Shown here in pieces: positions 28,665-52,027 of a stretch of DNA of 64,000 nt. Source of the DNA: a virus; IMG/VR virus record IMGVR_UViG_3300039008_000077, positions 4,189 through 68,188 of that record; one strand, 5' to 3'. Positions within the stretch are counted from its first letter, which is position 1. Each line of letters starts with the position of its first letter. A program made the translations under genes and the position numbers. The notes beneath the pieces are model-generated. The model had not been told where the DNA came from, did not search any database, and was given only the letters and a program-made list of their open reading frames with translations.

Positions 28665-28673
28665 TGTTTATCC

Positions 28674-37161: not shown

Positions 37162-37604
37162 TAGCGGAGCCTTTCAACAGTCGCACGCAGCACCACAGTT
37201 TCATTAGTGCTCACGACTTGGAATTCGATAGTGATGTTTGCGGTGTTACCGTCTCTACGCATTGCTGCCTCCACCTTCCGGATGCGGGCTCTCGGCTCAT
37301 AGTTTTGAATAGTGTTACGAATGGACTGTTCAATTTCATATGCCGTGAACGAATCATTAAGTTCAAATAGATACGAGCGAATGCCAGCGCCTTGGTTTGG
37401 CGCAAAGGGAACTTCGCCGGGGTTGGTCATAATTAAATTTTTGACAGCCTGCTTGACCGCAGCGGCATCATTGGAAATGTAAATATCTCCCGAACCGGGA
37501 ATCGGTTGGAAGCTAAGTTGAATATCAGAATATTTTTTGGTGCGGCTTACAATGATGCTGCCTGTTGAGAGGTTTGCGTCATCTGCGGCAAACTTGCGTG
37601 CCAT
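37161..37604 (-). CDS. gp25: Baseplate wedge subunit
   Basis: AVKQAVKNLIMTNPGEVPFAP, IRNTIQNYEPRA. Confidence 0.93.
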   Translation of the reverse strand: MARKFAADDANLSTGSIIVSRTKKYSDIQLSFQPIPGSGDIYISNDAAAVKQAVKNLIMTNPGEVPFAPNQGAGIRSYLFELNDSFTAYEIEQSIRNTIQNYEPRARIRKVEAAMRRDGNTANITIEFQVVSTNETVVLRATVERLR

Positions 37605-38371
37605 TATAATCCCTCCTCTCCATAGTCAGCATTCCAAGATACGGGATCAAAGATTACCATCTGGTCACCACGAAATCCTACGTTCTGAGCGTGGATATCC
37701 AAATTGGCATTCAAGCTTTTGACTTTTGTTAAGAAGTCTATTAGGTGTTCAAGATCAACTCCTAGCCTCTTGGCGAATCCATGAACTTGTTCGTGTGCAT
37801 ATGTATTATTGGGGTTGTCATTCAATACGTCTACAAGCGCTGCAATTTTATTGAAATTGTTTTTTTTAACTCCAAGGTCATATGCCTTATCTGAATTAAT
37901 TTCAAGAAATTCCATGACCGCAAGCATCTCGCCATGCTCAAACTCCCGGTAGTAGATTACCTCAGGGAAGAGAGGATTGGACTTGTGATATTTCTGACAC
38001 AGGGCAGCAAAGCCCTGCCAGCGATCTTGTTCACCCGTGCGGCCCGGCTTACTATGCTTCAAAACATACTGACGCTCATTGGTAGCACGAGAGTTTGCTC
38101 CTGAGAACACTGTAGAGAAGTAACCCCCACCCTCATATGATAGCCCCATTCCAATAGTGGTGTCCGTTGTCCCATCACTGAGAGCCCGAATAAGATCGGT
38201 CCCGGTTTCTAACCGAATGGTTCTTACTTCTCTTTTGGGAAGATCGGTCTCATTGTCCCAAGACGCAACCTCCATCTTATAATCAGTCGGCATAGACTTG
38301 ATTAGCTCGATGAGGTCCAGAGCTTCTTGTTTGCGCTCTACTAGCTGAATAAATTGACTATAGCTCTGCAT
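37604..38371 (-). CDS. Putative protein kinase with a capsid-targeting-like N-terminus
   Basis: Gly loop GGGYFSTV, VLK lysine, AVMEFL hinge, catalytic DIHAQN, VIFDP; N-terminus MQSYSQFIQLVE. Confidence 0.75.
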   Translation of the reverse strand: MQSYSQFIQLVERKQEALDLIELIKSMPTDYKMEVASWDNETDLPKREVRTIRLETGTDLIRALSDGTTDTTIGMGLSYEGGGYFSTVFSGANSRATNERQYVLKHSKPGRTGEQDRWQGFAALCQKYHKSNPLFPEVIYYREFEHGEMLAVMEFLEINSDKAYDLGVKKNNFNKIAALVDVLNDNPNNTYAHEQVHGFAKRLGVDLEHLIDFLTKVKSLNANLDIHAQNVGFRGDQMVIFDPVSWNADYGEEGL

Positions 38372-40301
38372 TGGATAGATCCAGAATGTTGTCGTCTACC
38401 TTGACGTGGTTGAACTCAGTGTAAACCGTACGAGAATTAGCACCCGGTTTAATGGTCACGATCAGGGTCGGCTCATTGACGCCTGAAGGATCATAGTCAA
38501 TGTAGGACAGAATCAGCTTATCGAAGGTCAGGTTATTTCTGATCCACTGAGCGGCTTCGAAGTAGAAGCTATTGGGGTGGTTAGGAAACTGGATGCCTAC
38601 ACCCAGACCTTTCACCATATCCACCGTAGGGGAATTGGAATCAACCTTCTCATTAGGCAACAGATTGTAGATGCCTTCAGATACTGTCCATGTATCCCTA
38701 TATTTATTCCGTAGCTCTTCTAGAACATTGTAGGAAACCAGCTGAGCATTCTGCGCAATCTGCGCAGCAGAGAGTCCGGCCTGATCCTTCAGAGTAGAAG
38801 ACAGGCTGTCGCCAGACAGCATATGACTGAGCATGAAGTTGGGAGATAGTTTGGAAGATTTTGCAATACCTTCGGTCAGGATCATTGCAGTCGGAATTTC
38901 CGTGACTCGTAGGCTTTCTGTTTGCTCAAGGTGAATCGTACTTTGACCTGCCCGAGAGTTACCAATAGAAGTAGACCCACTTGTAAATGGTACCGTAGAA
39001 CCCTCTCTCGTGGCCGTGGGTGGCGTTGAAGAGGAAATGGTAGACAGGATAGCCCCATTGTCCAACTGGTCCTGTAGCCATGCTTGATTCGTCCTCAGCG
39101 AACGATTGCGAGCACGGGCTACAACTTCATAGGTATTCAGAAGGCGACTGTTGTAGCCCGTGACAGGCTGGCGATCCAGATTCGTAATATAATCGTCACT
39201 GGTGCCTTTAACATCCACGACAGTCTCATCACTGTCTGGGTCCTCATCACGAGCGTCCGCAGTACCGGCACTCTGATTGGAAACCGATGTTGGAGAAGAA
39301 GCGCCGGTAGGAGCACTACCGGCAGTAGACGCCCACTGAGCACTCTTGGCGGTGCCTTCAAGAAGGGGCGTATGGACTGTGCCATCGGCTTTGATGGAAC
39401 CGGTAACGTCAAGAGCACCATCAATCACCACGTCGCCTGTGATGTCCATTGTGCCGGTCGTAACCACGACATTACCATAAAAATTTGTATTGTAGAGATT
39501 GGATGTGACGATAGAGCCAGCACCCTCGGTGCCTTCGGCATCCACGCCATTCATAGTCACAAGACCACCGAAGTATGAGCCCTGATACTGACCATAAGAC
39601 ATCTCATGAATTTCGCCCTCTACAGTTGTCCTATAGTCTCCTCCAATCTCAAGCTGGTGGTTGCCTACAGTACGTTCCAGCGAGTTGGAGAGATTGCGCA
39701 GGATCACATTGCCACGAGTCTCGTGGAGCCTGCTTCCGGTCGTAGAGGTTTCTTCGTTGCCATGGATACGAGTTCGGGTAGATCCTTGGACTTCTAGATT
39801 ATAGTTACCCTGTACCAGATGGTTGAAGTCGCCATCGGTTTGTAGGTTCATATCCCCTTTGCATCGAATAGATGCATTGGATTCAACGATAATGTTGACG
39901 TTACCCCTCACAACAGCATCAGCATCGCCCGCAACAATTTCATACTTGTCGCCTTTGGCCTTCACATACACAGAACCGTCCGGGCGCATTTCTATCTTAG
40001 AGCCAGTCTTATGCTGGATGCTTACCCGTTCACGGCCCGGCGTGTCATCGTATTCCACGATGTGTCCACCACGTGTTTCGTATACTTGGTTATGTGGATA
40101 TTGAGGAGAGCCTGAAGATGTGGGCTCTGTCACAGACTCAGCTGCAACTTGGGGGGTCAGAGATGCTACTCGTGCGCTACGGTTTCCCGCAGATTGTATC
40201 TCTTCACTTGCATTTGAGCGTGCACGTGGGTTAACGCCAGACTGATTTTGTGTCTGGCGCTTAGGAAATGTACCTGTTACATCCTGAAACCCATCGGGCA
40301 T
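38358..40301 (-). CDS. gp5: gp5 C-terminal part (beta-helix needle) plus a degenerate peptidase M15-like domain
   Basis: YPHNQVYETRGGHIVEYDDTPGRER...HKTGS, V-x-G-N/D beta-helix repeats; C-terminal LSPNFMLSH...NVLE; no OB-fold. Confidence 0.85.
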   Translation of the reverse strand: MPDGFQDVTGTFPKRQTQNQSGVNPRARSNASEEIQSAGNRSARVASLTPQVAAESVTEPTSSGSPQYPHNQVYETRGGHIVEYDDTPGRERVSIQHKTGSKIEMRPDGSVYVKAKGDKYEIVAGDADAVVRGNVNIIVESNASIRCKGDMNLQTDGDFNHLVQGNYNLEVQGSTRTRIHGNEETSTTGSRLHETRGNVILRNLSNSLERTVGNHQLEIGGDYRTTVEGEIHEMSYGQYQGSYFGGLVTMNGVDAEGTEGAGSIVTSNLYNTNFYGNVVVTTGTMDITGDVVIDGALDVTGSIKADGTVHTPLLEGTAKSAQWASTAGSAPTGASSPTSVSNQSAGTADARDEDPDSDETVVDVKGTSDDYITNLDRQPVTGYNSRLLNTYEVVARARNRSLRTNQAWLQDQLDNGAILSTISSSTPPTATREGSTVPFTSGSTSIGNSRAGQSTIHLEQTESLRVTEIPTAMILTEGIAKSSKLSPNFMLSHMLSGDSLSSTLKDQAGLSAAQIAQNAQLVSYNVLEELRNKYRDTWTVSEGIYNLLPNEKVDSNSPTVDMVKGLGVGIQFPNHPNSFYFEAAQWIRNNLTFDKLILSYIDYDPSGVNEPTLIVTIKPGANSRTVYTEFNHVKVDDNILDLSNAEL

Positions 40302-40312
40302 AAATTCACCCC

Positions 40313-40579
40313 TTAGCCGTTCAGTTGTTGTGGCTCGGTAGTAGTAGACTCAGAGACTTCGGGAGATTCACGCTTCACCACAGCACCATCCGGCTGGATA
40401 GCATACTCACCGGATCTCAGGTCAACACCATGGCGGTCTTGGATTAGATCCAGAACATCCCTGAATTCACGATCCAGTTGAGCAGCAGCTTGTTGGAGTC
40501 CACCTCGACGGACTTCCAGACCAGATAGTTTTTGAAGTTCAATTTCAGAAAGATTAATATTGGACATGTTATTTTTCAC
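40313..40579 (-). CDS. Small hypothetical protein (possible fibre-associated or chaperone)
   Basis: 88-aa helical ORF between the late promoter at 40859 and gp5C; the start may be 40567. Confidence 0.65.
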   Translation of the reverse strand: MKNNMSNINLSEIELQKLSGLEVRRGGLQQAAAQLDREFRDVLDLIQDRHGVDLRSGEYAIQPDGAVVKRESPEVSESTTTEPQQLNG

Positions 40580-40607
40580 CTATGATTAATGTCGCTATGC
40601 TAGTGGA

Positions 40608-40838
40608 TTAGGCCAGCAATTCATCCAACCGTGCTACTACACGGTCAATTTGTTCAAACTTCATAGAGAAGTCAGAAAGAAGATGCCGAGCCGTGTTCTT
40701 TGCATCAGCATCAAGATAAAGATCAACCTCAAGGTCAAGGCTATCTTTTAGATTTACCATCGCATCTTTGGTAGCAAGGAGTCTGGCTCGATCATCTGCC
40801 CACGCCTGCGCAATAGTTGTATTACGGTCTATTGACAT
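40608..40838 (-). CDS. Small hypothetical protein
   Basis: 76-aa ORF with a GGAG ribosome-binding site just after a late promoter. Confidence 0.7.
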   Translation of the reverse strand: MSIDRNTTIAQAWADDRARLLATKDAMVNLKDSLDLEVDLYLDADAKNTARHLLSDFSMKFEQIDRVVARLDELLA

Positions 40839-40858
40839 TATTTTCTCCGTTATGCTTC

Positions 40859-40866
40859 TATTTATA
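40859..40866 (-). promoter_or_regulatory. T4-type late promoter (drives gp5C, kinase, gp25, gp6, gp7)
   Basis: Exact TATAAATA. Confidence 0.85.
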
Positions 40867-40878
40867 GCCTATGTGATA

Positions 40879-41379
40879 TTAGATTTCGCTGCCGTAAGTC
40901 GATACGAAAATTTCATCCAGTGCCACCGGGCCAGCAGAAATATTGGTAATACTCAATGTACCGTTGACTCCCAATGAACCGGACTGCGCAGTATCAATAA
41001 AGTTAAACTGAAGCGTGTCATTGTTAGAAATAGAGATGTCTGTATTACTGGAAAATGATGTGTATGATCCGCCGTTGACTCTGTATTGTAGTGTACCTTG
41101 GGTAATATCCGGTGACAGTCTTACAGTAATTGCCTGACTTATACCGGTAAATGTTTGAACGTTGGACGCACCAGTACCCGGACCCAGATCAATCCAATCC
41201 ACAGGATCAGGGGTAATATCAACATCAGAAGTGCCATAGAAGTCACTAAGGCTTAGTGTACCCGATCCCGGTACACCCGTATCGGCTCCATAATATTCAC
41301 TAATGGAAATAGGGTTTGTCCCTCCAAATTCAGTTTGGATATCTCCAAGTGAAATTGCACCTGATTCTTGAAGTGCCAT
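40879..41379 (-). CDS. Fibre-tip-associated (adhesin-like) protein
   Basis: N-terminus MALQESGAISLGDIQTEFGGTNPISISEYY...LSLSDFYG, a motif typical of genes following phage fibres; beta-rich C-terminus. Confidence 0.65.
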   Translation of the reverse strand: MALQESGAISLGDIQTEFGGTNPISISEYYGADTGVPGSGTLSLSDFYGTSDVDITPDPVDWIDLGPGTGASNVQTFTGISQAITVRLSPDITQGTLQYRVNGGSYTSFSSNTDISISNNDTLQFNFIDTAQSGSLGVNGTLSITNISAGPVALDEIFVSTYGSEI

Positions 41380-44300
41380 TAATTGGGTTCCTTTTCCTCG
41401 TCGTTTAGTTTATTTATAAGAATTGAGACAAGCTCTTTCAGATCTTTTACTTCTTCTTCAAGAGCTTCACGTTTTTTCTTTTCTTCATAAAGAGCGGCTA
41501 CGGCATACTTACCGTAATCCATATGTAGAATGCCATTTTCATCCTCATGTACCAACTCAGGCGCTTCTTGTTGAACTTCCTGAGCGACAGGAGTAATGGA
41601 GTTCCGACCAGTTTCCTTCCATGTGATGTCATAGACAACAAGATTATCAATGAGGCCCGGACGATCAATTTCATGGTGAATATTCTTTAGGCTGGCATCT
41701 GAATATGCGGTAACATCACCAGTTGCAGTAAAATCGCCATTGTCATCAAATGTGAATCGGGTAGTCGTACCGTCACGGACATACAGATTGCCCAGATTAA
41801 CATCCATGTATGCATGAGTGCCATCATGAAAAATTTCAAAGTCATCGCCGGTGCCGAATGAACAGACATCATTGTCGTCAAAACTAACACCTCCATTGGC
41901 ACTAATGACACCTGTAACTGAAAGTGCCCCCGGAAGGCTACTGTCGCCACTTCCGTCACAGATAGTGGCAGTATAACGACCTGCCCATCCAGTGGCCCAG
42001 TTATCCGAAGATGAGTTGATTACTAATCCACCTTCGGCGTTGATATAAACACGCTCATCAGTTTGGCCGGTTGCATTTGCCGAAGCTTCACCGGCATTCA
42101 ATACGAGCTGCTGGCCTGTTCGGCAACGGACTTCATCCGCAAATACCCCCGTAGTTGCATATATTTCGGGTACTGTGATTTGGTCGTCTACTGTTAGTTT
42201 ACCATCAGTCGTAAGCGACATTGCGCCTTCAGATCCAGTATGATCAGAATGGCCCCACCAGAATCCACGAGAACTAGAGTTGTTCATTTGGAATGTCATG
42301 GCGAAGCTGTTCAAATCACCATATGTCACGGAGCTATCCATACCAATAGCATAATTCGAGTTATTCCAGACCCGAATCTTGTCACGAGAAGCAGTATTGT
42401 TGTGATCGATGTAATGATTCGCCGCAATTGATATATTGGAATCGAATTCCCATGCGCCGGTAATAGTTGCGGCTTCTGCCTTCCTTGGGAATTCCGATGC
42501 TTCGTAGCTATCTAGAGTATCAGCATCCAGCCCAGATCCAGATCCGTCATTACCAGCGTGCCAAACCTCATTGCCACTTTCGGCATAGATCGCTCCGGGG
42601 GAAGTGAAGCTCCCATCACTATCCTCGAATGTCCAACTATATTCTGTAGAATCCGTTTTGACTGTAATATAAAACCCTAAAGGACTTGCATCTGTTGAAT
42701 AAGAGTGCAAGTAGTTACCAGAAGATCCGCCATGGAGTGTAATGTATTGAGTGCTATTGCGTCCAAAAAGAGGTCCGGTTGTTGTATTTGGGGTATTACT
42801 GTTAACATAGCTAGTAATACCCGAGTCTGCACTAATACGTCCATCCCATGTACTAGACCCATCATTATTCACAATAGCAACAGTTGAGCCATTACCAGCC
42901 CCAGACCGTAAATCTAGAATCGCACCCGTTGATTGATTAGTAACGTATAGGGCGGGGCTTGTGCTATCTCTTCTTACCCATACATAATCATCTGTCGTTG
43001 AGCCAGCTCTTGCGTAGCCCGATCCCTCAACACCATCTAATGTATCGGCATCTAGCCCAGATCCCGATCCGTCATTACCGGCATGCCAATAGTCTGATAC
43101 AGCAGTCCCATTGAAGCTACCAACATTTTTGATGTCATTGCCGCTCATATTAAAATCGGCATATGCGGAAACTTCCGATGTTTTTAATGAGAATACATTT
43201 GTGAGAGCAGTAGCAACTCCTGAAGTTGTGCTGTCTCCCAGTTCAAATATAATCCGAGCGGTTGACGAATCCACATGTGATTCAATTCTAGCAGACGATC
43301 CCGTAGAATCAGGAGTGCCATCTCTGTGATTGAATGTGAGGTTGGCATTTCCATACCCATCATTAACCGTTAGGGCCACTCCCCCAGAACCGTTCCCAGC
43401 TTCGATATATGAACTGCTTGAAATCGATCCTGTTGTGGTGTCATCTGCATCAGATCTTAGGAATTGAGATGCGTGTAGGCCATCCAATAGATCAGCGTCC
43501 AACCCAGATCCCGATCCGTCATTACCGGCATGCCAGAGGGCGTTACCATCAAAGGTAAACGATGATGAGGTTAGAGATAACAACGGATCAGTAGTTAGAT
43601 CAGCCGAATCATTGATAACAAATGTGGAGCTATCTGATGCACCAACAGCCCAATCATCAGTACCCGTAGATCCGACATCAAACCCTACTGTCGGATCTCC
43701 TGCCTCACATCCGATATTGATGATTCCCGTAGACCCAATATCACGCTCGAATCGAGCAATTGGACCATCACTTCCGCCACCTGTGACATAAAGGCCAGCG
43801 CCCGATGATTTATTATCATCGATATGAACAGTGTATGAGGTGGTCCCGAAAGAGCTGCCATTACGCCCAAAAACAGTAGAGCCTTGAATGTGATTATGGA
43901 CATCAGATTCGGTGTCTCCTGCCTCTACCCAAATACCAAGCGCATTTGTGACATCTCCATCCATATTGTCACGGAGATTGATATGTAGACCATACAGGTT
44001 AGTGATCGTTCCGGTAGACGCATTAATATCAACATCGGCTCTTAGGAGATATGCGTTAGAAATCGTGGCTCCGGATGTTGAATCCTGATCAAGAAAACTA
44101 CGTACCCCGTACGCAGAAGACATAGCCTGATCGGAATCGGTAGTCAGCCTGACAACGCCCATTACCCCATAAGCAGTATCTAGTTCGGACCCCGCATTAT
44201 CCATACGAGATTCAAATCTACCACCAAATACAGTAGACCCGTTTGAGTCAGATCCGCCACTGACAGTTGCCAGTCCATTGACGCCATACATGAAGTCTGC

Positions 44301-47300
44301 ATGGCCAGAAATAATCTGTGCGTATCCATCCACCCCTGTCACGATAGGCACATTGCTATCGGCAGTGGTGGAGCTGTCATTAAGGACGGTCCGGCCATAG
44401 ATAGCGGTCCTATCTTGGGCGGATGTCATCAAGGCAGAACCTGATGCAACATTAATGCGTGAGAAGATTCCATATTCATCAGCATCGGTGTCCGAAGATG
44501 ACGTTCTTACAAGGTTGATAGAGCGGTTAGCATTGATGCCTACCCCGACCCCGATGTTATAATTGCTATCGAATTCAACATCAGAGTTAATGTTGAGAGT
44601 GTCCGCTGCGTTGAGGTTTAGGTCCCCGGACAGGGTACCAATAGTACCTGCTCCGGCATTGTACATTTCATTGGGATCAAATGACCACCCAAGAGAGGCG
44701 GTACCGATTTTAACCCATCCATTTTCCCATGTAGACCCCCCAATAGATCCACCGCCTCCGTCCCACTTCAGAGCACCACCAGCTTCAATTTCACCACGAA
44801 TTGTATCATTTGTACCAAAGACAATCTTCTCGTTATCCTGATTAACGATGTGGTAGTCCCCGGATGTGAATCCATGATATACACCTGAAGTAGACCCATC
44901 GCCTTTGAGGGTCATTAGTGTGTCACTGCCCGTTGGGTCACTAAAGCTAACACCCTCAACTCCGTTTGGCCTAATGAGAATGTCGCCAGCGGTAGTATCG
45001 ATAAGCATATTACCAGAATTGGTAGCAACAAGACGACCGATTTCTCCTGTCGTCTCATTACCAAGGAACAGGTATGCCCATTCTGTCCCAGATCCTCTGG
45101 CATAGAATCCACCATATCCCGATCCGCCCCGAGACTCGATGAGTGTGTCGCCGCTGGTGTTTTCAAAAAACCCCGCAGTTGGTGTCGTGGAATTGACAGT
45201 CAACGCCCCGGTCATGGTATCACTTGTGTCAGATCGCAAGAATTGAGTAGAATTCAATCCGTCAATAGTGCTGGCATCGGTGCTTCCAGACACCACGCTA
45301 TCAACATACGCCTTAATGGATTGCTGAGTAGCCAAAGCTGTAGCAGAGTCAGAAGACATAGCATCTTCATCAAGGATACTGTTTACCGATACACCAGATT
45401 CGAGCGCAAGGCCGTTATTGCCCAGCGCCATACGTTCAGTTCCATTCGTAGACCATGCCTGAGTGTTAGCTGCCTTGAGATACCACCCGGTATCTCCATC
45501 AGACCAGAAGGTATAGTGTGGAGTCGAAGCGGCTCCAAATCCCCCACGCTGGACGATATGAGCATCAGCAGCGGTAGAACCAGCAGTCGTAATATCAGTT
45601 ACCGTGACCGAAGCCCCAGATGCATACGAATTTTCAAATTGAGAACCTTCTCCTGTAACATTGATAGCTCCCCCAATTTGAGTATCGCCTCCAACATTAA
45701 GGACATAGGAAGAATCTACATCATCGCAAATACCAACCCGACCACTCGAAGATACAAACAGGGCCTTGTGCTGACTATTGTCATAGTCGCCCCATAGCTT
45801 CATGATGTATCGATCATCGGTTTGATCGGGATCTTGGATTTCGAAGTGAGTGCCACCGTTTGTTGTTGGGGGCTGAATTAGAATGCCAGCACCAGCATGT
45901 TGGTCCATAAGAAGCCGTTGACCAATTATGTCTAATGTACCATGGATGGCCATGTTACCAGAGGCATTTAATGTAGCAACTGTTGATCCATCAGGACCAT
46001 CTCTCCATGTGAACCCTCCGGACGCATCGAAAAACATAGATCCAGACGAAACGGTAGATGTAATTTTGGAATTAACTGTTCCGCCCGTTCTGAACTGGAT
46101 TTGAGTCTGAGTATCACCACTACTAATAATCTTGGTGTTAGGATTATTAGTAGCCCCAGTAGTCGGACCAAACGTAGTATTACCCGTAGATTCGATCTGT
46201 ACACTATTGATTCCCGAATTATTACGGAAGTAGTGATTGTCGAAATCTGTATACTGTGTTGTTACTGCTGTTCCCGGAGACGTATGGAAATATGGAGAGC
46301 CAGAATTGTCTACCAGACTTTGAGAGACCGACGAATTGGCTGTTGTTGTCTGGTGCAGTACCTGAGACTGAACACTCGTTCCAGAAAACACGACTTTCTC
46401 AGCCGTCCCAGAATTTTCAATCTGGAAGAATGTAGTTTCAGAGTTATCACGGAAGACAAAGCTATCCCCACCAGCCACAACTTCAAAGTTATTGATGCCA
46501 TTGACCCCAATTGCCATAGCCCGAGACGATGAATCGTTACGAATATATGTACGAGAGCTATCTTGCCCGATGAATGTCGAATATCCAGCACCGTCAAGTT
46601 CAAGATGATCGCCATCATCGCCACGGGAGATTTCAACCACATGATCGAGCCCAGTTCCGCCATTCACAAAAAGCGCAACTCCTAGAGAATCAGCAGTAAC
46701 GGCACTACCGATAGACACTCCAAGGTCATTGGTAAAGACTACTTCTTCAGTACCATTAAAGATCCATCCATATCCATTTTCACCCCGAATGATATTATTA
46801 CCACTTGCTTCCCAGCCGATATATCCCCGGCGAGTGTCATCGGCGGAATGGAACCCAAAGTATGGGGGATATGTGGCATTCGCACTTGTTACACTGATAT
46901 ATGGTCCGGACCCTTGACGGAACTGATCATTCTCATCGGAACGCATGAAGCTTGTAGAGTCTAGGCCATCCAGAGTAGCAGCATCACCAGCAGCAGTTCC
47001 GTCATCGAACAGAACATCATAATAGTTAGATCCATCAGATGTGGCTTGCCATGTGTCAGTAGTTTCATTCCAGCGGAATTGAACATTATCAGACGTACCC
47101 CGCTCAACTTCAATACCCGCATTCTGGGTGGGAGAGCCGGTCTCATCAGCGTTGAGCGTGATTATATTGTCCCCGACCTGAAGGTCAGTTGTATTGACAT
47201 ATGTTGTGGTCCCGTTAACTGTTAAGTCCCCGGAGACAACCATATTTCCGGTAAAGGTTTGGGCGGCGGCATTCAGGAATGCAATCTGACTATCATTCCC

Positions 47301-50300
47301 TGTGTGATATACTTGATCTGTTCCAACATAGAGTTCACCATCATTACTAAATGTGAACTGTCTATTGGTCGAGTCATATCCATTCTGAAGATCGGTTACG
47401 ATATATACATCAGAATCGGCAACTACCCAAGTATTCTCTCCTGTTTCATTAGAGATATAATTATGGAAATCATTACCTACGTCGCCACTACCAAGAATAA
47501 GAGAATCGTCCCGAGAAGAGAAGTTCAACGCACCCCGATCAGACACTTGACGTAAAATCGCAGTGCCTCCCAGAGACATCAGGTTATCCGAGCCGGGATC
47601 AGAAGCTACTCTATCATCAAACTGGATGCTAGATCCATCTGGAAGATCTATATTTTTCCCATTCATGTTCAGATCAGAGCGTAAGGTGACTTCAGCCGCA
47701 GATGTCCCGAGATACAGTCGATCCGCAGAGTGATCCCTCCACAGGTAACTGGTCGGACTGTCTGTAGAGTCTGCAAGGATAAAGTCCTCATCATCAACGA
47801 TGATATTGACCCGACCATTGTCAACCCCATCTCCACGCACAAAGCTAATGCTGTCGATTCCATCCAATGTATCCGCATCTACATTGAGAGCATCCACAAA
47901 GCTCTTAGTAACCCGGGCATCAATATCTGTGTTGGCTCGGGCTGTCGTATAGTAGAGGTTGGTACCCTCAGGCAAATCAGTGGTACTTGACAGGTCGGTG
48001 ATCTCTGCCAGAACATGAGTGTGAGCGCTTGGCGCAAATGTTGATGGAACGCCTGTCAGGTTAGCCCATGCCAGATAGTAAGTACCATCCTGTCCGTCAA
48101 GCAAATCCGCATCAAATCCAGAGCCAGTACCGACATTAGCATTTACCCATGTACCAGAAGAGTAGGTTAGTACCTGCCCGTTCGCCGGAGATGCGATCTC
48201 CACATCAGTAAGCTCTCCTAGTTCATCACGAGATGCCAGAAGGGTATCCACCTGAGATGACGTGTAGTATCCCGTGAACAGAGTATCCACCTGAGATGAT
48301 GTATAGTATGCAACCAATGCACCATCGATCAATGCCTGAACCTCAGATTCAGATAAACTGTCGCCTCCTAATGCGGCGGTAGCAAGACCTAGGCCGGAAG
48401 CAGTGCCTACAATCCCCAAGATAGGATCAGAGAACGGCGAAGGGATTGTGACTGGGGGATTCGGTGCGGACAGGTCAGCAATCTCACCAGTGACCGTCTC
48501 TACAACATCAGAATCCAAATCGGTTACAGATGGAATGTTAGCCGAATTAGGAGTAGGCACATCGGGCTCACGGCCCGGAGAGCTTTTGGACTGGTTAACT
48601 GCCTTGGCATTTGCTTTAGCGCTGGCGGGGCGAGCCTTGTCGCCACCAGCCGAAACAGCAGACGCATTTACACCAGATGTATCCGGCACAGTCGCCGGGG
48701 CGGGCTGAGGGTTGCTAGTCGTCTCGGGCGTAGTAGATTCAAAGAACTGGCGAACATCAAACAACGGACGATTGGATGTGTCATCTAAATCACGCAGGCC
48801 AATCACAGAAACTGCTGGATATGCATGTGTGATAGCATTAACGATCACACGAAGAGCATTGAACTGTTCGACAGAATACGAAGTTGCACGCCCGCCACCA
48901 TGACGCTGACCACCTTGGAATGCGACCACAACAGAGAATTGACGGTGATTTCGTAGAGTTTGACCTGATACTCCAACATTACCACGTCTAAAATACTCAG
49001 CCTCAACCAGACGCCTACCATGCAAGGCCCGTGTTACACCATCTTGGGGATAACGAATGCGCTCGTTATTAGCATTGCGATAGGAAGTATACAGAGTAAA
49101 TGAACTCGCAGCGGCCTCATAGTTACCGCTATTCAGATTACGAATAAGAGTGCTGGCCGAGGAAGTAAGATTACCAAGATTATACGACAGTGCCACCAGA
49201 GCATCAAATTGAGACTGAGTAATATCAACAGTAACGCTTCTGTGCACCACTCCTTCAAATCGCTCAACATGTTCGTCAAAGAGCTGGTCTGCCTGTGCTT
49301 CAGTGATAGAAATTTGGCTGCGGTCGGACGTAGCGAACCCCATCCAGCGCTGACTAAATTCTTCGAATAGCTCTGGTTGATCATTGGTACCAATAAAGTA
49401 TCCATACCCAATAGAATAGCCATATGCGTCTACATATGGCTCAAGGCGTAGGCCCTCCCAGCGCTTCATTTGCTCTCGCATCTCTGTAGACGTAGTGAAG
49501 TGAGATGCGGGTAACATCTCACCATCAGCCGTCACAGACGTACCGGCAGGCATATTTTCCACAGGCTGGTTGGCTAATGTACCGATCCGAATAGACCCAT
49601 CTTCAGCAATCAGAAAATGAGTATCATCGGCCCAGTCATCGGGCAACGGACTGCCCGGCTGGGTGTTTGTATCGGTAACAATTACTTCCGCAATGTTGCG
49701 ATTCAGAGACCGAATATAGCGGTAAACATGCTCCTCAGATGGAAGGATGTCATCAGTTTTTAAATCGGTGGGAGCCCCACGTTCAGGATAAAGTCCAATG
49801 TCACCATTGGTAGACGAACCATATGCGTCCAATGCCTGACGTGCATAACTGTGACGAATATTGCGATCTTGTTCGAGTGGGAGCCCCAACACGTTTACCG
49901 CAAATGAATCTGCCGCCTCAGAAGAGTCAAATGCGCCAAGCTGCTGACCCGAAACAGAATGGTTAGGCCATGCATCTGTGTGCTGAAGAGTACTTCCAAG
50001 AAACAAGAGCTGAGTGTCAAAATCCTCATATCGGCGACTGGACACTGATGCATATGAACGCAAAGCAGCAGCGTTGTCTTCATCCCAGTTACCAATGCCA
50101 TATCGACCACTAGCATGATCAACGTCCACACTATCAAGAGTATATGAGCCCATGAATTGAGCGACCGCACCCAGTGCACCCGCAGCTTCTTCCTCAGTAA
50201 AACCAAGGATGTCACGGAAGTATGAGTACATGCGCTCGGGATTAGAGTCGCCATACAGAGACTGGGTGATTTGATTAAGAGCTTGGCCCTGCCTTGCCGT

Positions 50301-50609
50301 AGCAGTGTCAGTACCAGTTAGGGCATTTATGACAAGGAAATCCTGCTTGTCCGCACCATCAAGGAACACACCAAAGACAAACGAACCTTCAACCAGACCG
50401 GTAGGAGTTTGACCAACACCAGACGTACCGGCATTGTTCGCCGCAATCGCAACGTGAGACCATGGCAGTTCATGAATGGCCAATGTGTTATTATCAAATG
50501 TATGAAGTCCGTGAATACGTACACGAACACGCCCTTGGTTCAGTGGATCTTGAATATCTTCAACAACACCAATGCCCCAATGGGTCGAGTCACCATAGAA
50601 TTTTTGCAT
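41379..50609 (-). CDS. 3,076-aa fusion: gp5 OB-fold, muralytic domains, long fibre, S74-type chaperone
   Basis: GVVEDIQDPLNQGRVRVRIHGLH...GSFVFGVFLDGADKQ (gp5 N-terminus), WEGLRLEPYVD...SIGYG (GH24), WHAGNDGSGSGLDAD repeats, SDASLK...VAQEVQQEAPELV. Confidence 0.85.
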   Translation of the reverse strand: MQKFYGDSTHWGIGVVEDIQDPLNQGRVRVRIHGLHTFDNNTLAIHELPWSHVAIAANNAGTSGVGQTPTGLVEGSFVFGVFLDGADKQDFLVINALTGTDTATARQGQALNQITQSLYGDSNPERMYSYFRDILGFTEEEAAGALGAVAQFMGSYTLDSVDVDHASGRYGIGNWDEDNAAALRSYASVSSRRYEDFDTQLLFLGSTLQHTDAWPNHSVSGQQLGAFDSSEAADSFAVNVLGLPLEQDRNIRHSYARQALDAYGSSTNGDIGLYPERGAPTDLKTDDILPSEEHVYRYIRSLNRNIAEVIVTDTNTQPGSPLPDDWADDTHFLIAEDGSIRIGTLANQPVENMPAGTSVTADGEMLPASHFTTSTEMREQMKRWEGLRLEPYVDAYGYSIGYGYFIGTNDQPELFEEFSQRWMGFATSDRSQISITEAQADQLFDEHVERFEGVVHRSVTVDITQSQFDALVALSYNLGNLTSSASTLIRNLNSGNYEAAASSFTLYTSYRNANNERIRYPQDGVTRALHGRRLVEAEYFRRGNVGVSGQTLRNHRQFSVVVAFQGGQRHGGGRATSYSVEQFNALRVIVNAITHAYPAVSVIGLRDLDDTSNRPLFDVRQFFESTTPETTSNPQPAPATVPDTSGVNASAVSAGGDKARPASAKANAKAVNQSKSSPGREPDVPTPNSANIPSVTDLDSDVVETVTGEIADLSAPNPPVTIPSPFSDPILGIVGTASGLGLATAALGGDSLSESEVQALIDGALVAYYTSSQVDTLFTGYYTSSQVDTLLASRDELGELTDVEIASPANGQVLTYSSGTWVNANVGTGSGFDADLLDGQDGTYYLAWANLTGVPSTFAPSAHTHVLAEITDLSSTTDLPEGTNLYYTTARANTDIDARVTKSFVDALNVDADTLDGIDSISFVRGDGVDNGRVNIIVDDEDFILADSTDSPTSYLWRDHSADRLYLGTSAAEVTLRSDLNMNGKNIDLPDGSSIQFDDRVASDPGSDNLMSLGGTAILRQVSDRGALNFSSRDDSLILGSGDVGNDFHNYISNETGENTWVVADSDVYIVTDLQNGYDSTNRQFTFSNDGELYVGTDQVYHTGNDSQIAFLNAAAQTFTGNMVVSGDLTVNGTTTYVNTTDLQVGDNIITLNADETGSPTQNAGIEVERGTSDNVQFRWNETTDTWQATSDGSNYYDVLFDDGTAAGDAATLDGLDSTSFMRSDENDQFRQGSGPYISVTSANATYPPYFGFHSADDTRRGYIGWEASGNNIIRGENGYGWIFNGTEEVVFTNDLGVSIGSAVTADSLGVALFVNGGTGLDHVVEISRGDDGDHLELDGAGYSTFIGQDSSRTYIRNDSSSRAMAIGVNGINNFEVVAGGDSFVFRDNSETTFFQIENSGTAEKVVFSGTSVQSQVLHQTTTANSSVSQSLVDNSGSPYFHTSPGTAVTTQYTDFDNHYFRNNSGINSVQIESTGNTTFGPTTGATNNPNTKIISSGDTQTQIQFRTGGTVNSKITSTVSSGSMFFDASGGFTWRDGPDGSTVATLNASGNMAIHGTLDIIGQRLLMDQHAGAGILIQPPTTNGGTHFEIQDPDQTDDRYIMKLWGDYDNSQHKALFVSSSGRVGICDDVDSSYVLNVGGDTQIGGAINVTGEGSQFENSYASGASVTVTDITTAGSTAADAHIVQRGGFGAASTPHYTFWSDGDTGWYLKAANTQAWSTNGTERMALGNNGLALESGVSVNSILDEDAMSSDSATALATQQSIKAYVDSVVSGSTDASTIDGLNSTQFLRSDTSDTMTGALTVNSTTPTAGFFENTSGDTLIESRGGSGYGGFYARGSGTEWAYLFLGNETTGEIGRLVATNSGNMLIDTTAGDILIRPNGVEGVSFSDPTGSDTLMTLKGDGSTSGVYHGFTSGDYHIVNQDNEKIVFGTNDTIRGEIEAGGALKWDGGGGSIGGSTWENGWVKIGTASLGWSFDPNEMYNAGAGTIGTLSGDLNLNAADTLNINSDVEFDSNYNIGVGVGINANRSINLVRTSSSDTDADEYGIFSRINVASGSALMTSAQDRTAIYGRTVLNDSSTTADSNVPIVTGVDGYAQIISGHADFMYGVNGLATVSGGSDSNGSTVFGGRFESRMDNAGSELDTAYGVMGVVRLTTDSDQAMSSAYGVRSFLDQDSTSGATISNAYLLRADVDINASTGTITNLYGLHINLRDNMDGDVTNALGIWVEAGDTESDVHNHIQGSTVFGRNGSSFGTTSYTVHIDDNKSSGAGLYVTGGGSDGPIARFERDIGSTGIINIGCEAGDPTVGFDVGSTGTDDWAVGASDSSTFVINDSADLTTDPLLSLTSSSFTFDGNALWHAGNDGSGSGLDADLLDGLHASQFLRSDADDTTTGSISSSSYIEAGNGSGGVALTVNDGYGNANLTFNHRDGTPDSTGSSARIESHVDSSTARIIFELGDSTTSGVATALTNVFSLKTSEVSAYADFNMSGNDIKNVGSFNGTAVSDYWHAGNDGSGSGLDADTLDGVEGSGYARAGSTTDDYVWVRRDSTSPALYVTNQSTGAILDLRSGAGNGSTVAIVNNDGSSTWDGRISADSGITSYVNSNTPNTTTGPLFGRNSTQYITLHGGSSGNYLHSYSTDASPLGFYITVKTDSTEYSWTFEDSDGSFTSPGAIYAESGNEVWHAGNDGSGSGLDADTLDSYEASEFPRKAEAATITGAWEFDSNISIAANHYIDHNNTASRDKIRVWNNSNYAIGMDSSVTYGDLNSFAMTFQMNNSSSRGFWWGHSDHTGSEGAMSLTTDGKLTVDDQITVPEIYATTGVFADEVRCRTGQQLVLNAGEASANATGQTDERVYINAEGGLVINSSSDNWATGWAGRYTATICDGSGDSSLPGALSVTGVISANGGVSFDDNDVCSFGTGDDFEIFHDGTHAYMDVNLGNLYVRDGTTTRFTFDDNGDFTATGDVTAYSDASLKNIHHEIDRPGLIDNLVVYDITWKETGRNSITPVAQEVQQEAPELVHEDENGILHMDYGKYAVAALYEEKKKREALEEEVKDLKELVSILINKLNDEEKEPN
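41411..41418 (-). promoter_or_regulatory. T4-type late promoter inside the 3' end of the giant gene
   Basis: Exact TATAAATA 32 nt upstream of the 166-aa gene. Confidence 0.75.
42531..43535 (-). repeat. Three 33-bp direct repeats encoding WHAGNDGSGSG
   Basis: cccagatcccgatccgtcattaccggcatgcca is identical at 43056-43088 and 43503-43535; the copy at 42531-42563 has 3 mismatches. Confidence 0.9.
48244..48299 (-). repeat. Tandem repeat with a 39-bp period (YYTSSQVDTL x2) at the start of the fibre region
   Basis: gtatccacctgagatga at 48244 and 48283. Confidence 0.85.
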
Positions 50610-50611
50610 GT

Positions 50612-52027
50612 TTATCTCGGTCTTTGTTCTGCTTCGGTTTCAAAGCGCCCCGGATCATTGATATTGTCCGGTGTATCTGGTCTGCCAAGTTCAAGAACAA
50701 CATTATACTCATTATTGGTGTTGTTCATGATGTGTCTAGCATTCATGATCAGGAATCGCCCCGATCTCTTTTGGTCTAGTGAATTCTGGTCGTTGCGATA
50801 GACTGGCTGGTCTTTTGGCATCCGTACATTAATAGTTGTCCCCACGCCTCGCTCATCATCAGTGGCCCCAAAGTGATAGCCATCGATCATAACCGTATAT
50901 CGCTCTCGTTCCAACATAAGAATGTCTGATTCACGTGAGAGCCTGAATTGATGGTTGTCATACTGGGTTTCCTCATTGAACCCACGATAGCCATCAAACA
51001 TCGACGTAGTATTTATTCCAGAAGTAAAGACGGAATCGAGTCCGGCTACACGTGTTTCCCCATCTTCATTGGTCAGAGAGAAGTATTCGTCAAATAGAGT
51101 GTGGTGTTCTTCTGAAGCAGACTGGTTAGATTTGCGATTATCAAAATGTGTCTCGGCATCAAACTCAATGGGATCTTGGGTTCTATTGGTCAGGTCCATG
51201 TTATAGTAAGTAGAACGCAGTGCACCCTTGTCGGCCAAGGTGAAGATATTGTCGTTCTCGGGAAACGACACGGACTGAATGCGATAGCGATCCCGCACAT
51301 GTGCTTCCTCCACAGTCTCAGCAGGAATCTGGCTGTATGTAAATGTCTCCTCGGATTCCCATGGATGATTGGTCATCATCCCGGTTAGATCACGAAACTT
51401 GATGTTCGGCGTTTCAAGCGCTTCTTCAGAGCCAGACTTATTCATGGTGGCATAGGTAAACATAGGTTCGCCTATATCATTGGTGGCCCGGCCACTGAGC
51501 CATCGAATGATCTCAAGTGGGTGTCTATTGTTCTCCATGATGCGAATGCGCTGAACAGACTCATCAGAAACGGACAATCCCGCATCGATTCCAGACAGAA
51601 TGCTATCGATAATATTCCCGATCTCACCCGCCTTGGTTCCGTCCAGTCTTTGAAACTTAGAGTAATAGCCATGGCGCTCAATAATATCTAGAATCAATGT
51701 AGAACCTGTGGTGTTGGCAGATTTGTTCTGAGCAGAAACAGCATAGATGTAGAAGTTCTTTACATATTGTTTATCGCCAACACGCCACTCAAGACGCAAC
51801 ACTTCTTGCCCTTGGAAGTTAATGGCAGCTGCCAGAGATGAGGTGTCTACTACAGCAACCCTACCTGTCATAACAGGCTCCCAGATAGATTCGAACAGGT
51901 TCACTTCTGCAATGGCAGGACGGACATCCCAGCGCTGCACATCAGTATCAGCCTGTCCGGCAAACCGGCGACGTTCGATCTCGGCCAAGGTGATCGAGAA
52001 CTCTCTCATTTCGTTCTGGATGGGCAT
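50612..52027 (-). CDS. Baseplate hub protein (gp27-like)
   Basis: VNLFESIWEPVMTGRVAVVD...QGQEVLRL, DQKRSGRFLIMNARH; lies between gp53 and gp5. Confidence 0.75.
   Translation of the reverse strand: MPIQNEMREFSITLAEIERRRFAGQADTDVQRWDVRPAIAEVNLFESIWEPVMTGRVAVVDTSSLAAAINFQGQEVLRLEWRVGDKQYVKNFYIYAVSAQNKSANTTGSTLILDIIERHGYYSKFQRLDGTKAGEIGNIIDSILSGIDAGLSVSDESVQRIRIMENNRHPLEIIRWLSGRATNDIGEPMFTYATMNKSGSEEALETPNIKFRDLTGMMTNHPWESEETFTYSQIPAETVEEAHVRDRYRIQSVSFPENDNIFTLADKGALRSTYYNMDLTNRTQDPIEFDAETHFDNRKSNQSASEEHHTLFDEYFSLTNEDGETRVAGLDSVFTSGINTTSMFDGYRGFNEETQYDNHQFRLSRESDILMLERERYTVMIDGYHFGATDDERGVGTTINVRMPKDQPVYRNDQNSLDQKRSGRFLIMNARHIMNNTNNEYNVVLELGRPDTPDNINDPGRFETEAEQRPR

What the first reader, a model, noticed from the sequence alone, without database searches (positions are those of the whole stretch)
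38358..50609. gp5 split in two, with its OB-fold fused to a central fibre of more than 2,000 aa
The hub-binding OB-fold of gp5 starts the 3,076-aa ORF right after the gp27-like gene. It continues through muralytic domains, a P/S/T/A-rich linker, a long fibre and an S74-type chaperone. The rest of gp5 (MPDGFQD...YPHN...beta-helix) is a separate gene about 10 kb downstream with its own ribosome-binding site and late promoter (40859), which argues for an evolved arrangement rather than a misassembly. Both gp5 and S74-chaperoned fibres are trimers, so this may be a contractile tail with a long central fibre on the hub. How a needle without an OB-fold attaches is an open question.
Basis: partly seen in the sequence, partly recalled or inferred. 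Interest (0 to 1): 0.8.

Follow-up and report, generated by a model that had tools for sequence, protein, structure and literature searches.

The report
Split tail spike carrying giant fibre
In this uncultured aquatic T4-like phage, the hub-binding foot of the cell-puncturing spike protein starts a 3,076-residue protein with cell-wall enzymes and a long self-chaperoned fibre, while the needle is a separate gene; split spikes are already published, but a fibre fused to the foot has not been described and recurs in many related phages.

Summary
On the minus strand a gp27-position gene is followed directly by a 3,076-aa ORF with this order of parts:
- Gp5 OB domain
- Phage_lysozyme2
- amidase-like halves around a GH24 lysozyme
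- P/S/T/A-rich linker
- about 2,200 aa of fibre
- a divergent S74 chaperone

Three small genes later comes a 647-aa gp5C: an N-terminal GFxD...YPxN docking segment, a beta-helix and an inactive-looking LAS-fold domain.

It is not a misassembly. The same gene order occurs in six other independent metagenomic contigs, and contigs from other studies bridge the junctions.

The OB proteins of this clade are 1,049 to 3,076 aa long. At least 12 clusters at 50% identity have an OB-first protein of 1,300 aa or more. Eight of the 12 long members scanned have a significant S74 match.

The split itself is not new. It is published for PhiM9/P10VF and is present in the cultured phage Melnitz, whose complete genome has no other gp5. 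Intact relatives show that the break lies exactly between the OB barrel and the GFxD motif.

A 3+3 complex prediction docks gp5C onto the OB trimer (0.89 against 0.00 for controls), probably through likeness to solved T4 gp5.

The fibre fused to the OB foot is the undescribed part. A single hub-anchored fibre on a contractile tail is inferred, not shown.

The parts
50612..52027 (-). 471-aa gene in the gp27 (hub) position, directly upstream of the OB protein
   Evidence: phrog_350 'tail protein' E 1.3e-38. It has the same position as the 'tail protein' upstream of gp5 in Milchi and C48C1. A gp27 fold is not confirmed: the AF2 model has pLDDT 40.8, and there is no PDB sequence or profile hit.
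50292..50594 (-). gp5 N-terminal OB domain (residues 6-106 of the 3,076-aa protein)
   Evidence: Pfam Gp5_OB at 46.5 bits, over the cut-off. It aligns with solved gp5 residues 5-97. In 150 of 150 best relatives the OB is at the protein's N-terminus.
48708..50243 (-). Muralytic head: Phage_lysozyme2 (residues 123-263), amidase-like N-half (about 290-360), nested GH24 lysozyme (382-509), amidase-like C-half (547-634)
   Evidence: Relatives have an uninterrupted Amidase_2 with the HHTD motif. The nested GH24 recurs in P0020, P0031 and P0039.
48345..48737 (-). P/S/T/A-rich linker (about residues 625-728), followed by a conserved IPSPF motif and a hydrophobic Gly-rich stretch (729-749)
   Evidence: 48% P/S/T/A over residues 625-790. 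The motif is conserved in P0005, P0006 and P0020.
41703..48344 (-). Fibre shaft and distal part (about residues 756-2969)
   Evidence: Seven spaced D-A-x-T/L-L-D-G nodes. Tail-fibre PHROGs match and tblastn finds fibre genes of marine phages. The proximal part is colinear with relatives and the distal part is mosaic.
41379..41702 (-). C-terminal S74-type intramolecular chaperone (residues 2970-3076) with the AY-SD-x-SLK site, and the stop codon
   Evidence: Pfam match covers the full model but scores 14.1 bits against a cut-off of 22. E 7e-13 to P0020, whose S74 scores E 4e-17. 49% identity to the S74 end of the 1,392-aa fibre.
40879..41379 (-). 166-aa protein of the 'MALQxSGxISLxDIQTEFGG' family, with its own TATAAATA at 41411-41418
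   Evidence: Eight members in six loci, always between the fibre gene and gp5C. The N-terminus is conserved and the C-terminus variable. Structural likeness to Gp38 adhesins is weak, TM 0.42-0.49, and is a lead only.
40313..40866 (-). Late promoter TATAAATA (40859-40866), 76-aa gene (40608-40838) and 84-aa gene (40313-40567)
   Evidence: nine TATAAATA sites against 1.65 expected. Both small genes are 72-92% conserved in L007 and L008.
40062..40301 (-). gp5C N-terminal docking segment (residues 1-80): the GFQD..FPKR and YPHNQVYETRGGH motifs
   Evidence: Colinear with the segment straight after the OB barrel in intact gp5. The predicted interface with the OB trimer uses residues 17-30 and 68-79.
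39342..40061 (-). gp5C triple beta-helix region (about residues 81-320)
   Evidence: phrog_430 positions 311-569, E 1e-44. T4 gp5 residues 376-549, E 5e-19. Pfam Gp5_trimer_C scores 24.1 bits, under the cut-off of 30.9.
38358..39341 (-). gp5C distal part: S/T-rich linker, a conserved helical region (about residues 321-470) and a LAS-fold (M15-like) domain (471-647)
   Evidence: AF2 pLDDT 87.5. Zn DD-peptidase 1lbu matches at Z 11.2, rmsd 3.4, 132 residues aligned. The positions of Melnitz's H, D and H zinc ligands are M562, G569 and V in this protein, and G569 is invariant in 13 clade members.

Best explanation
This is the central hub and spike module of a distant T4-like myophage, in which gp5 is encoded as two proteins.

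**Shown**
- The break lies exactly between the OB barrel and the conserved GFxD..YP motif of intact gp5.
- The upstream protein keeps the OB foot. It continues into a muralytic head, a flexible linker, a long fibre and an S74-type chaperone.
- The downstream protein keeps everything from the GFxD motif onward: the docking segment, the beta-helix and a LAS-fold end domain.
- The arrangement is conserved across a clade.

**Inferred**
- Three OB feet sit on the hub trimer.
- Three gp5C chains dock on them through residues 17-30 and 68-79 and form the needle in trans, much as T4's cleaved gp5C stays on gp5*.
- The muralytic heads flank the needle like T4's gp5 lysozyme domains.
- The three linkers of about 100 to 130 residues let the three chains join beside or beyond the needle into one trimeric fibre per virion. 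The fibre folds from its C-terminal chaperone, which then cuts itself off at the conserved Ser-Asp site.
- The fibre most likely acts in host recognition, possibly with the small variable 166-aa protein at its tip.
- The long linker would let the needle and lysozyme go through the envelope on contraction while the fibre stays outside.
For: **Domain calls.**

**Position of the break**
- Milchi gp5 residues 14-73 match the OB protein at 43-102, and residues 80-321 match gp5C at 3-239.
- Intact P0149 (638 aa) is colinear with gp5C residues 4-632, starting at its own residue 116.
- P0102 and P0164 carry a lysozyme or an amidase inserted at the same site while remaining one chain.

**Clade-wide conservation**
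- Six other independent loci have the order hub gene, OB-lysin-fibre, small genes, gp5C, gp25, gp6. Their OB proteins are 1,049, 1,482, 2,702, 2,738, 2,911 and 3,075 aa.
- Thirteen gp5C homologues at 39-93% identity have no OB domain on record.
- Among the 150 best OB relatives, 12 cluster representatives are 1,300 aa or longer.
- Twelve long members were scanned with Pfam. Eight have a significant S74 match and none has a beta-helix domain.

**A split gp5 is viable.** The complete Melnitz genome has gp5 matches only in genes 154 and 155. The PhiM9/P10VF split is published.

**Docking prediction.** The score is 0.89 against a best control of 0.00. That mark was reached by 58 of 80 solved complexes and 2 of 110 mismatched pairs. 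Partner pLDDT is at least 79 and the runs agree in at least 47% of contacts. The pass may come from likeness to solved T4 gp5.

**Pattern typical of a receptor-binding fibre**
- The N-terminal 1,300-1,560 residues are colinear with relatives at 59-65% identity, while the distal part is mosaic.
- Modules are shared with the phage's other fibre gene and with fibres of marine phages.
- There is no perfect late promoter inside the giant ORF except near its end.
Against: - Nothing shows that the protein is in the virion, stays uncut in the linker, or that the fibre is central.
- Three chains that leave the hub around an occupied axis must trimerise off-axis or beyond a needle that itself ends in three globular domains. 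That is geometrically awkward.
- The S74 match is under Pfam's cut-off in this copy.
- The hub protein's gp27 fold could not be confirmed.
- The docking prediction rests on likeness to a solved complex and used my own alignments.
- The record is 39% complete, so a second gp5 cannot be excluded here.
Confidence: 0.6

Rival explanations
1. Fusion for assembly only. The giant protein is cut in the P/S/T/A-rich linker during tail maturation, as T4 gp5 is cut into gp5* and gp5C. The OB-lysin head stays in the hub. The fibre is released, or is mounted elsewhere on the baseplate, or is held only non-covalently.
For: - T4 gp5 is processed after assembly (established knowledge; the T4 structures found are of that complex).
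- The linker is long and of low complexity.
- A conserved IPSPF motif with a hydrophobic Gly-rich stretch at the start of the fibre could be a docking element of its own.
- The phage has the usual peripheral baseplate genes and a second fibre with related modules.
Against: - No protease site or conserved cleavage motif was identified.
- Fusion of the OB domain to a fibre is kept over a wide span of divergence. OB identity runs from 46 to 91%, and the linker varies freely. That suggests the covalent link matters.
- A separately mounted fibre would normally be a separate gene.
Confidence: 0.2
2. The long region is not a host-recognition fibre. It would be a hub-anchored structural or penetration device, for example a tether or probe that crosses a thick capsule, sheath or S-layer ahead of the needle, or a line that is carried into the envelope with the lysozyme.
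For: - The protein carries up to three muralytic domains and sits at the puncturing centre.
- A hydrophobic Gly-rich stretch at residues 729-749 precedes the shaft.
- A separate 1,392-aa fibre gene sits in the usual host-recognition locus.
Against: - The distal part is mosaic while the proximal part is conserved, which is the pattern of receptor-binding proteins.
- Homology is to annotated tail fibres.
- An adhesin-like small gene family with a variable C-terminus always accompanies it.
Confidence: 0.12
3. Artefact: a chimeric assembly, or a decaying gene that joins an OB-lysin gene to an unrelated fibre gene.
For: - The window is a metagenomic contig.
- Fibre modules are repeated within the genome, which can mislead assemblers.
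Against: - An uninterrupted 9.2-kb frame.
- A 97.9% identical 3,075-aa copy in another sample's assembly, with full synteny.
- Copies that are 59-65% identical and colinear across the junctions.
- Contigs from other studies bridge the OB-to-linker and linker-to-fibre joints.
- The same architecture appears in many 50%-identity clusters.
Confidence: 0.02

Closest known systems
T4 gp5 in the (gp27-gp5*-gp5C)3 cell-puncturing complex (PDB 1K28 and later baseplate structures)
   Same: An OB foot, a lysozyme beside the needle and a triple beta-helix needle. In T4 the needle piece is also a separate chain in the mature particle, held non-covalently. The YPxxxxETxxGH pre-helix motif is shared.
   Different: T4 makes one polypeptide and cuts it after the lysozyme domain. 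Here two genes are broken straight after the OB barrel, 1.08 kb and three genes apart. The N-terminal piece goes on into about 2,200 aa of fibre plus a chaperone. The needle ends in a LAS-fold domain. No PAAR gene was found in the contig.
Split gp5 of Sinorhizobium phage PhiM9 and Rhizobium phage P10VF (gp5.2 OB protein, gp5.1 beta-helix protein; Johnson et al. 2015, PMC4621102)
   Same: gp5 is encoded as a separate OB protein and a separate beta-helix protein in a T4-superfamily phage.
   Different: In P10VF the OB frame is about 294 aa with no fibre and lies about 33 kb from gp5.1. gp5.1 has a 500-aa N-terminal extension of its own.
Methylophilales phage Melnitz genes 154 and 155 (cultured, Kyanoviridae; MZ577098)
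   Same: The closest cultured parallel. The break point is the same. Gene 155 is colinear with gp5C over residues 4-632, including the GFxD motif, the beta-helix and the M15-like end. The OB protein carries a wall-degrading domain. There is no other gp5 in the complete genome.
   Different: The OB protein is only 346 aa (OB plus a VanY-like domain) with no fibre or chaperone. The two genes abut. The M15-like domain keeps its H/D/H ligands. A PAAR-like gene follows. The paper does not discuss gp5.
S74 (endosialidase-type) C-terminal intramolecular chaperone fibres and spikes, such as K1F endosialidase and the T5 L-shaped fibre
   Same: A C-terminal chaperone domain with a conserved Ser-Asp cleavage motif, followed by a coiled coil, at the end of a trimeric fibre.
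   Different: Those proteins attach by dedicated N-terminal anchors to the baseplate periphery or collar. Here the N-terminal anchor is the gp5 OB foot of the central hub.
Central fibres of non-contractile tails (lambda gpJ, T5 pb3/pb4, Tal proteins of Gram-positive siphophages) and evolved VgrG of type VI secretion
   Same: A trimeric hub or spike protein extended into a central fibre or effector domain, often with muralytic domains. This is an analogy from established knowledge and was not tested here.
   Different: In those systems the fibre or effector continues the axis of the same chain, and there is no separate needle sharing the axis. No homology beyond the OB and beta-helix parts was shown.

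Membership tests
T4 gp5-type central spike / tail lysozyme | N-terminal gp27-binding OB domain | tested here: met
   Pfam Gp5_OB at 46.5 bits against a cut-off of 25. Aligns with solved gp5 residues 5-97, E 3e-21.
T4 gp5-type central spike / tail lysozyme | OB domain, lysozyme and C-terminal triple beta-helix in one polypeptide | tested here: not met
   The giant ORF has no beta-helix match. The beta-helix lies in a separate 647-aa gene. The same holds in six related loci.
T4 gp5-type central spike / tail lysozyme | Beta-helix domain recognisable as gp5 C-terminal domain | tested here: met
   phrog_430 positions 311-569, E 1e-44. T4 gp5 residues 376-549, E 5e-19. Pfam Gp5_trimer_C scores only 24.1 bits against 30.9.
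T4 gp5-type central spike / tail lysozyme | Encoded next to, and bound to, a gp27-fold hub protein | tested here: inconclusive
   The upstream gene is phrog_350 'tail protein' in the syntenic place. The fold is not confirmed: AF2 pLDDT 40.8 and no PDB hit. Binding was not tested.
T4 gp5-type central spike / tail lysozyme | PAAR cap (gp5.4) on the needle tip | tested here: not met
   No PAAR_motif match at E up to 1 in the 70-kb record. The record is incomplete. Melnitz has a PAAR-like gene.
Genetically split gp5 (PhiM9/P10VF, Melnitz type) | Separate OB protein and beta-helix protein, with no intact gp5 | tested here: met
   for the contig. Colinearity with Melnitz gene 155. The break maps to residues 73-80 of intact Milchi gp5. 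The absence of a second gp5 holds only for the 39% of the genome on hand.
S74 intramolecular-chaperone fibres | C-terminal Peptidase_S74 domain over Pfam's threshold | tested here: inconclusive
   14.1 bits against a cut-off of 22, E 0.06, but the whole model (1-58) is aligned. Homology to bona fide S74 ends: E 7e-13 to P0020 (Pfam E 4e-17) and 49% identity to the other fibre's end.
S74 intramolecular-chaperone fibres | Conserved Ser at the self-cleavage site, and trimeric fibre folding that depends on the domain | not testable with these tools
   The motif AY-SD-A-SLK is present at residues 2968-2975. Cleavage and folding need experiments.
LAS / M15 zinc peptidases (C-terminal domain of gp5C) | LAS fold | tested here: met
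   AF2 pLDDT 87.5. 1lbu matches at Z 11.2, rmsd 3.4, 132 residues aligned, followed by VldE and Hedgehog at Z about 6.
LAS / M15 zinc peptidases (C-terminal domain of gp5C) | His/Asp/His zinc ligands | tested here: not met
   Aligned to Melnitz gene 155 (SQHNTGNAVD ... WIH), the three positions are M562, G569 and V. G569 is invariant in 13 clade members.

The most novel reading that the evidence does not exclude
A clade of aquatic T4-like myophages carries one very long trimeric fibre anchored covalently to the central hub through the gp5 OB foot, side by side with a needle supplied in trans. This would be a contractile tail with a true central fibre. It would imply a way of coupling host recognition to the puncturing centre that is not known for contractile injection systems.
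Probability: 0.4. Interest if true: 0.8.

Novelty: new variant of a known kind. Interest (0 to 1): 0.6.

Why it matters
Contractile tails are thought to sense the host through peripheral fibres and the baseplate, while the centre only punctures. A conserved family in which the hub-binding foot of the spike is the anchor of a fibre 1,000 to 3,000 residues long would place a receptor-binding (or envelope-probing) element at the centre.

It also gives a natural series for how modular the spike is:
- intact gp5
- gp5 with an enzyme inserted at the OB/linker boundary
- split gp5
- split gp5 with a fibre

The family is abundant in marine and freshwater metagenomes but has no cultured member. It marks a concrete target for isolation, cryo-EM and proteomics, and the OB foot could serve as a natural adaptor in engineering fibre display on contractile particles.

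The split by itself is already published and should not be counted as the novelty.

Tried and rejected
- **Close DNA or protein relatives.** Megablast of the 13.7-kb region against cultured phages found no match. The search for related loci in viral contigs with residues 1-650 found nothing.
- **Cultured phages with the fused head.** tblastn with residues 1-700 found no record covering more than about 25% of the query. No cultured phage in that collection has a similar OB-lysozyme2-amidase protein.
- **gp27 fold of the upstream gene.** Pfam, NCBIfam and PDB searches by sequence and by profile gave no hit. The AF2 model from five sequences had pLDDT 40.8 and was not used. The Atlas listed only unnamed viral clusters and distant GPD/gpP-like leads.
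- **Small genes.** The 166-, 76- and 84-aa genes and the 255-aa gene have no Pfam, PHROG or NCBIfam family of note.
- **gp5C end domain.** Foldseek against the PDB gave only a weak 1lbu match, E 4.6e-3. VIA-align was needed.
- **Phage C48C1.** It looked like a second cultured split, but its 196-aa protein holds both the OB and the YPKNKVYETENG motif, and its 451-aa neighbour is unrelated to gp5C. It was rejected as a split.
- **Cyanophage S-CAM4.** Its gp25/gp6 region has no gp5 nearby and was uninformative.
- **L011's 109-kb record.** It could not be searched for a second gp5 because it is not held.
- **Literature.** Searches for an OB-fibre fusion or a central fibre on a myovirus found nothing relevant.
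- **Internal start.** An internal late promoter that could give a fibre-only product was looked for. There is no perfect TATAAATA inside the ORF except at 41411-41418.
- **Habitat.** Habitat was not inferred from runs that hold only a small share of the words.

Full report
**What is there**

The window is part of a 69,973-bp viral contig that CheckV estimates to be 39% complete. It comes from a distant T4-like myophage. Its gp6 is 33-34% identical to that of Methylophilales phage Melnitz and of cyanomyophages.

The gene order on the minus strand is as follows:

| Gene | Coordinates |
|---|---|
| gp48-like | 52947-53978 |
| gp53-like | 52027-52947 |
| 471-aa gene in the gp27 position | 50612-52027 |
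| 3,076-aa ORF | 41379-50609 |
| 166-aa gene | 40879-41379 |
| 76-aa gene | 40608-40838 |
| 84-aa gene | 40313-40567 |
| 647-aa gp5C | 38358-40301 |
| 255-aa gene | 37604-38371 |
| gp25 | 37161-37604 |
| gp6 | 35377-37161 |

T4-type late promoters (TATAAATA) occur nine times against 1.65 expected. Two of them lie at 41411-41418 and 40859-40866 on the minus strand. gp5C is therefore the third gene of a late unit. It has its own AAGGGG ribosome-binding site.

**The giant protein**

- Residues 6-106 are a gp5 OB domain. Pfam scores 46.5 bits against a cut-off of 25, and phrog_430 positions 15-110 match. Residues 6-94 align with solved gp5 residues 5-97.
- Next come Phage_lysozyme2 (123-263), a GH24 lysozyme (382-509) and an amidase-like stretch (547-634).
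- In shorter relatives the same place holds an uninterrupted Amidase_2 with the HHTD motif. Here the GH24 domain sits inside an amidase fold whose histidines are replaced. The same nesting recurs in P0020, P0031 and P0039.
- Residues 625-790 are 48% P/S/T/A.
- A conserved IPSPF motif and a hydrophobic Gly-rich stretch (729-749) precede the shaft.
- The shaft has seven spaced D-A-x-T/L-L-D-G nodes. It matches tail-fibre PHROGs and fibre genes of marine phages.
- The C-terminal S74 chaperone is divergent, at 14.1 bits against a cut-off of 22. It aligns at E 7e-13 with the end of P0020, whose S74 scores E 4e-17. It is 49% identical to the chaperone end of the phage's second fibre gene at 22234-26412.

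**gp5C**

- Residues 40-324 match phrog_430 positions 311-569, E 1e-44. Residues 57-182 align with T4 gp5 residues 376-549.
- The first residues (GFQD..FPKR) correspond to the segment that follows the OB barrel in intact gp5.
- The C-terminal 190 residues fold with pLDDT 87.5 into a LAS (M15-like) fold. The best match is 1lbu at Z 11.2, rmsd 3.4, 132 residues aligned.
- The three zinc-ligand positions seen in Melnitz gene 155 are M, G and V here, and the G is invariant in the clade. The domain is probably not a peptidase.

**Real, and conserved**

- A protein search restricted to similar lengths found three relatives: 3,075 aa at 97% identity over the first 300 residues (97.9% over the full length), and 2,738 aa and 2,702 aa at 82% over the first 300. 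They come from ENA, JGI and Logan assemblies.
- Their contigs show the same order, with gp5C beginning at the same Met-x-DGFQD and 93-94% identical to this one.
- gp5C homologues down to 39% identity have no OB domain on record. Their contigs carry upstream OB proteins of 2,911, 1,482 and 1,049 aa with the same domain order.
- A scan of 1.8 billion cluster representatives with the OB domain alone gave 3,051 hits. Among the best 150 the OB is always N-terminal, and 12 representatives are 1,300 aa or longer.
- Twelve long members were scanned with Pfam. All have the OB domain and ten have Phage_lysozyme2. Ten have an Amidase_2 match, which in two of them consists of partial halves around a GH24 lysozyme. 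One has GH24 without an amidase match, and one has an SLT domain instead. One has no muralytic match at all.
- Eight of the 12 have a significant S74 match, and none has a beta-helix domain.
- Contigs from other studies bridge 48097-48638, 48103-48612, 48535-50577 and 48589-50577.
- The proximal 1,300-1,560 residues are colinear with relatives at 59-65% identity, while the distal fibre is mosaic.

**Where the break is, and how it arose**

- Intact, lysozyme-less gp5 of Pseudomonas phage Milchi aligns with the OB protein over its residues 14-73 and with gp5C over its residues 80-321. The two genes together are therefore colinear with one gp5, and the break lies in a linker of about six residues.
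- Among the OB relatives, P0149 (638 aa) is an intact OB, beta-helix and M15 protein, colinear with gp5C from its residue 116.
- P0102 (1,008 aa) has a VgrG3-type lysozyme inserted at that very site, and P0164 (863 aa) an Amidase_2. Both remain one chain.
- Melnitz has the split with a 346-aa OB-VanY protein.
- This gives a graded series from intact gp5 to the present giant. T4's own lysozyme domain is inserted a little further on, after the GFSDP motif.

**The split is not new**

- Johnson et al. 2015 state that PhiM9 and P10VF have gp5 split into an OB protein (gp5.2) and a beta-helix protein (gp5.1) (PMC4621102).
- In P10VF the OB frame is about 294 aa and lies 33 kb from gp5.1.
- In the complete Melnitz genome, gp5 matches occur only in genes 154 and 155. 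A plaque-forming phage therefore lives on a split gp5.
- The Melnitz paper does not mention this. A pelagimyophage survey notes only that gp5 is very divergent.

**How the needle may attach**

- A prediction with three OB domains and three copies of gp5C residues 1-200, each given as an alignment, scored 0.89 against a best control of 0.00.
- That mark was reached by 58 of 80 solved complexes and 2 of 110 mismatched pairs. Partner pLDDT was at least 79 and the runs agreed in at least 47% of contacts.
- The interface joins OB residues 19-26, 58-73 and 98-102 to gp5C residues 17-30 and 68-79, which include the invariant YPxN..ET..GH motif. The pairing pattern looks like strand addition.
- T4 gp5 is solved, so this pass shows likeness to that complex and not independent proof.

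**Interpretation**

- Shown: the architecture, its conservation and the break point.
- Inferred: that the giant protein sits on the hub as a trimer, that its three chains form one fibre per virion, that the chaperone cuts itself off, and that the fibre recognises the host.
- The main rival is cleavage in the linker after assembly.
- No cultured phage in the collection has the fused form, and no paper describing it was found.
- I rate it a new variant of a known kind, with moderate-to-high interest.

Noticed in passing
window 40879-41379 (-); also L007:9165-9746, L007:10318-10824, L008:12096-12656, L011:8392-8919, L011:9489-10001, L012:9466-10008, L014:9450-10001: A small-protein family (166-193 aa) has a conserved N-terminus of about 55 aa (MALQxSGxISLxDIQTEFGG...SDFYG) and a variable C-terminus. 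One or two copies always lie between the OB-fibre gene and gp5C. Structural likeness to T4 Gp38 adhesins is weak (TM 0.42-0.49). It may be a fibre-tip adhesin or an assembly factor.
   Followed up: partly
window 40313-40838 (-): Two short genes (76 and 84 aa) look helical and are 72-92% conserved in the nearest relatives. Counterparts are present in L011 and L014. They have no known family and are transcribed from the late promoter at 40859-40866 together with gp5C.
   Followed up: partly
window 48708-49742 (-): A GH24 lysozyme is nested inside an Amidase_2-like fold. The HHTD motif seen in uninterrupted relatives (L012, L014) reads VTDTNT here. The same nesting recurs in P0020, P0031 and P0039, and P0022 has an SLT domain instead.
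   Followed up: partly
window 38358-38891 (-): gp5C ends in a well-predicted LAS (M15-like) fold that lacks all three canonical zinc ligands, although many other residues are invariant. Melnitz and the intact relative P0149 keep an M15_3 match. In Milchi and Vibrio phage 1.244.A the homologous domain is fused to a PAAR protein instead.
   Followed up: partly
window 48363-48440 (-), residues 724-749 of the giant protein: A conserved IPSPF motif is followed by a 21-residue hydrophobic Gly/Ala-rich stretch (PILGIVGTASGLGLATAALGG) at the linker-to-fibre transition. It could be a trimerisation start, a docking element or a membrane-active segment.
   Followed up: no
window 22234-26412 (-): A second fibre gene (1,392 aa) lies between the VrlC-like baseplate genes and the neck genes. 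It shares several modules and the S74 chaperone end (49% identity over 161 aa) with the giant protein, so fibre modules have been exchanged or duplicated within the genome.
   Followed up: partly
proteins P0102, P0164, P0149 (metagenomic relatives): Unsplit gp5 relatives carry a VgrG3-type lysozyme or an Amidase_2 inserted exactly at the OB/GFxD boundary, and there is an intact OB, beta-helix and M15 form. That boundary looks like a hot spot for domain insertion.
   Followed up: partly
L009 (Melnitz) 7914-8210: Melnitz gene 156 (98 aa), right after its gp5C-like gene, is PAAR-like (25.6 bits, just under the cut-off) but is annotated as hypothetical. No PAAR match exists in this window's contig.
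   Followed up: partly
window 37604-38371 (-): A 255-aa gene overlaps the end of gp5C by 14 nt. Its only match is a weak one to a phage protein-kinase PHROG (E 1.7e-6). It is absent at this position in L011, L012 and L014, where gp5C is the last named gene before gp25 (L012 has three short opposite-strand ORFs in between).
   Followed up: no
window 26598-31670 (-): The VrlC-like baseplate protein family (phrog_358) is encoded here as two adjacent genes of 998 and 688 aa. They match consecutive parts of the profile (positions 569-1157 and 1179-1585).
   Followed up: no
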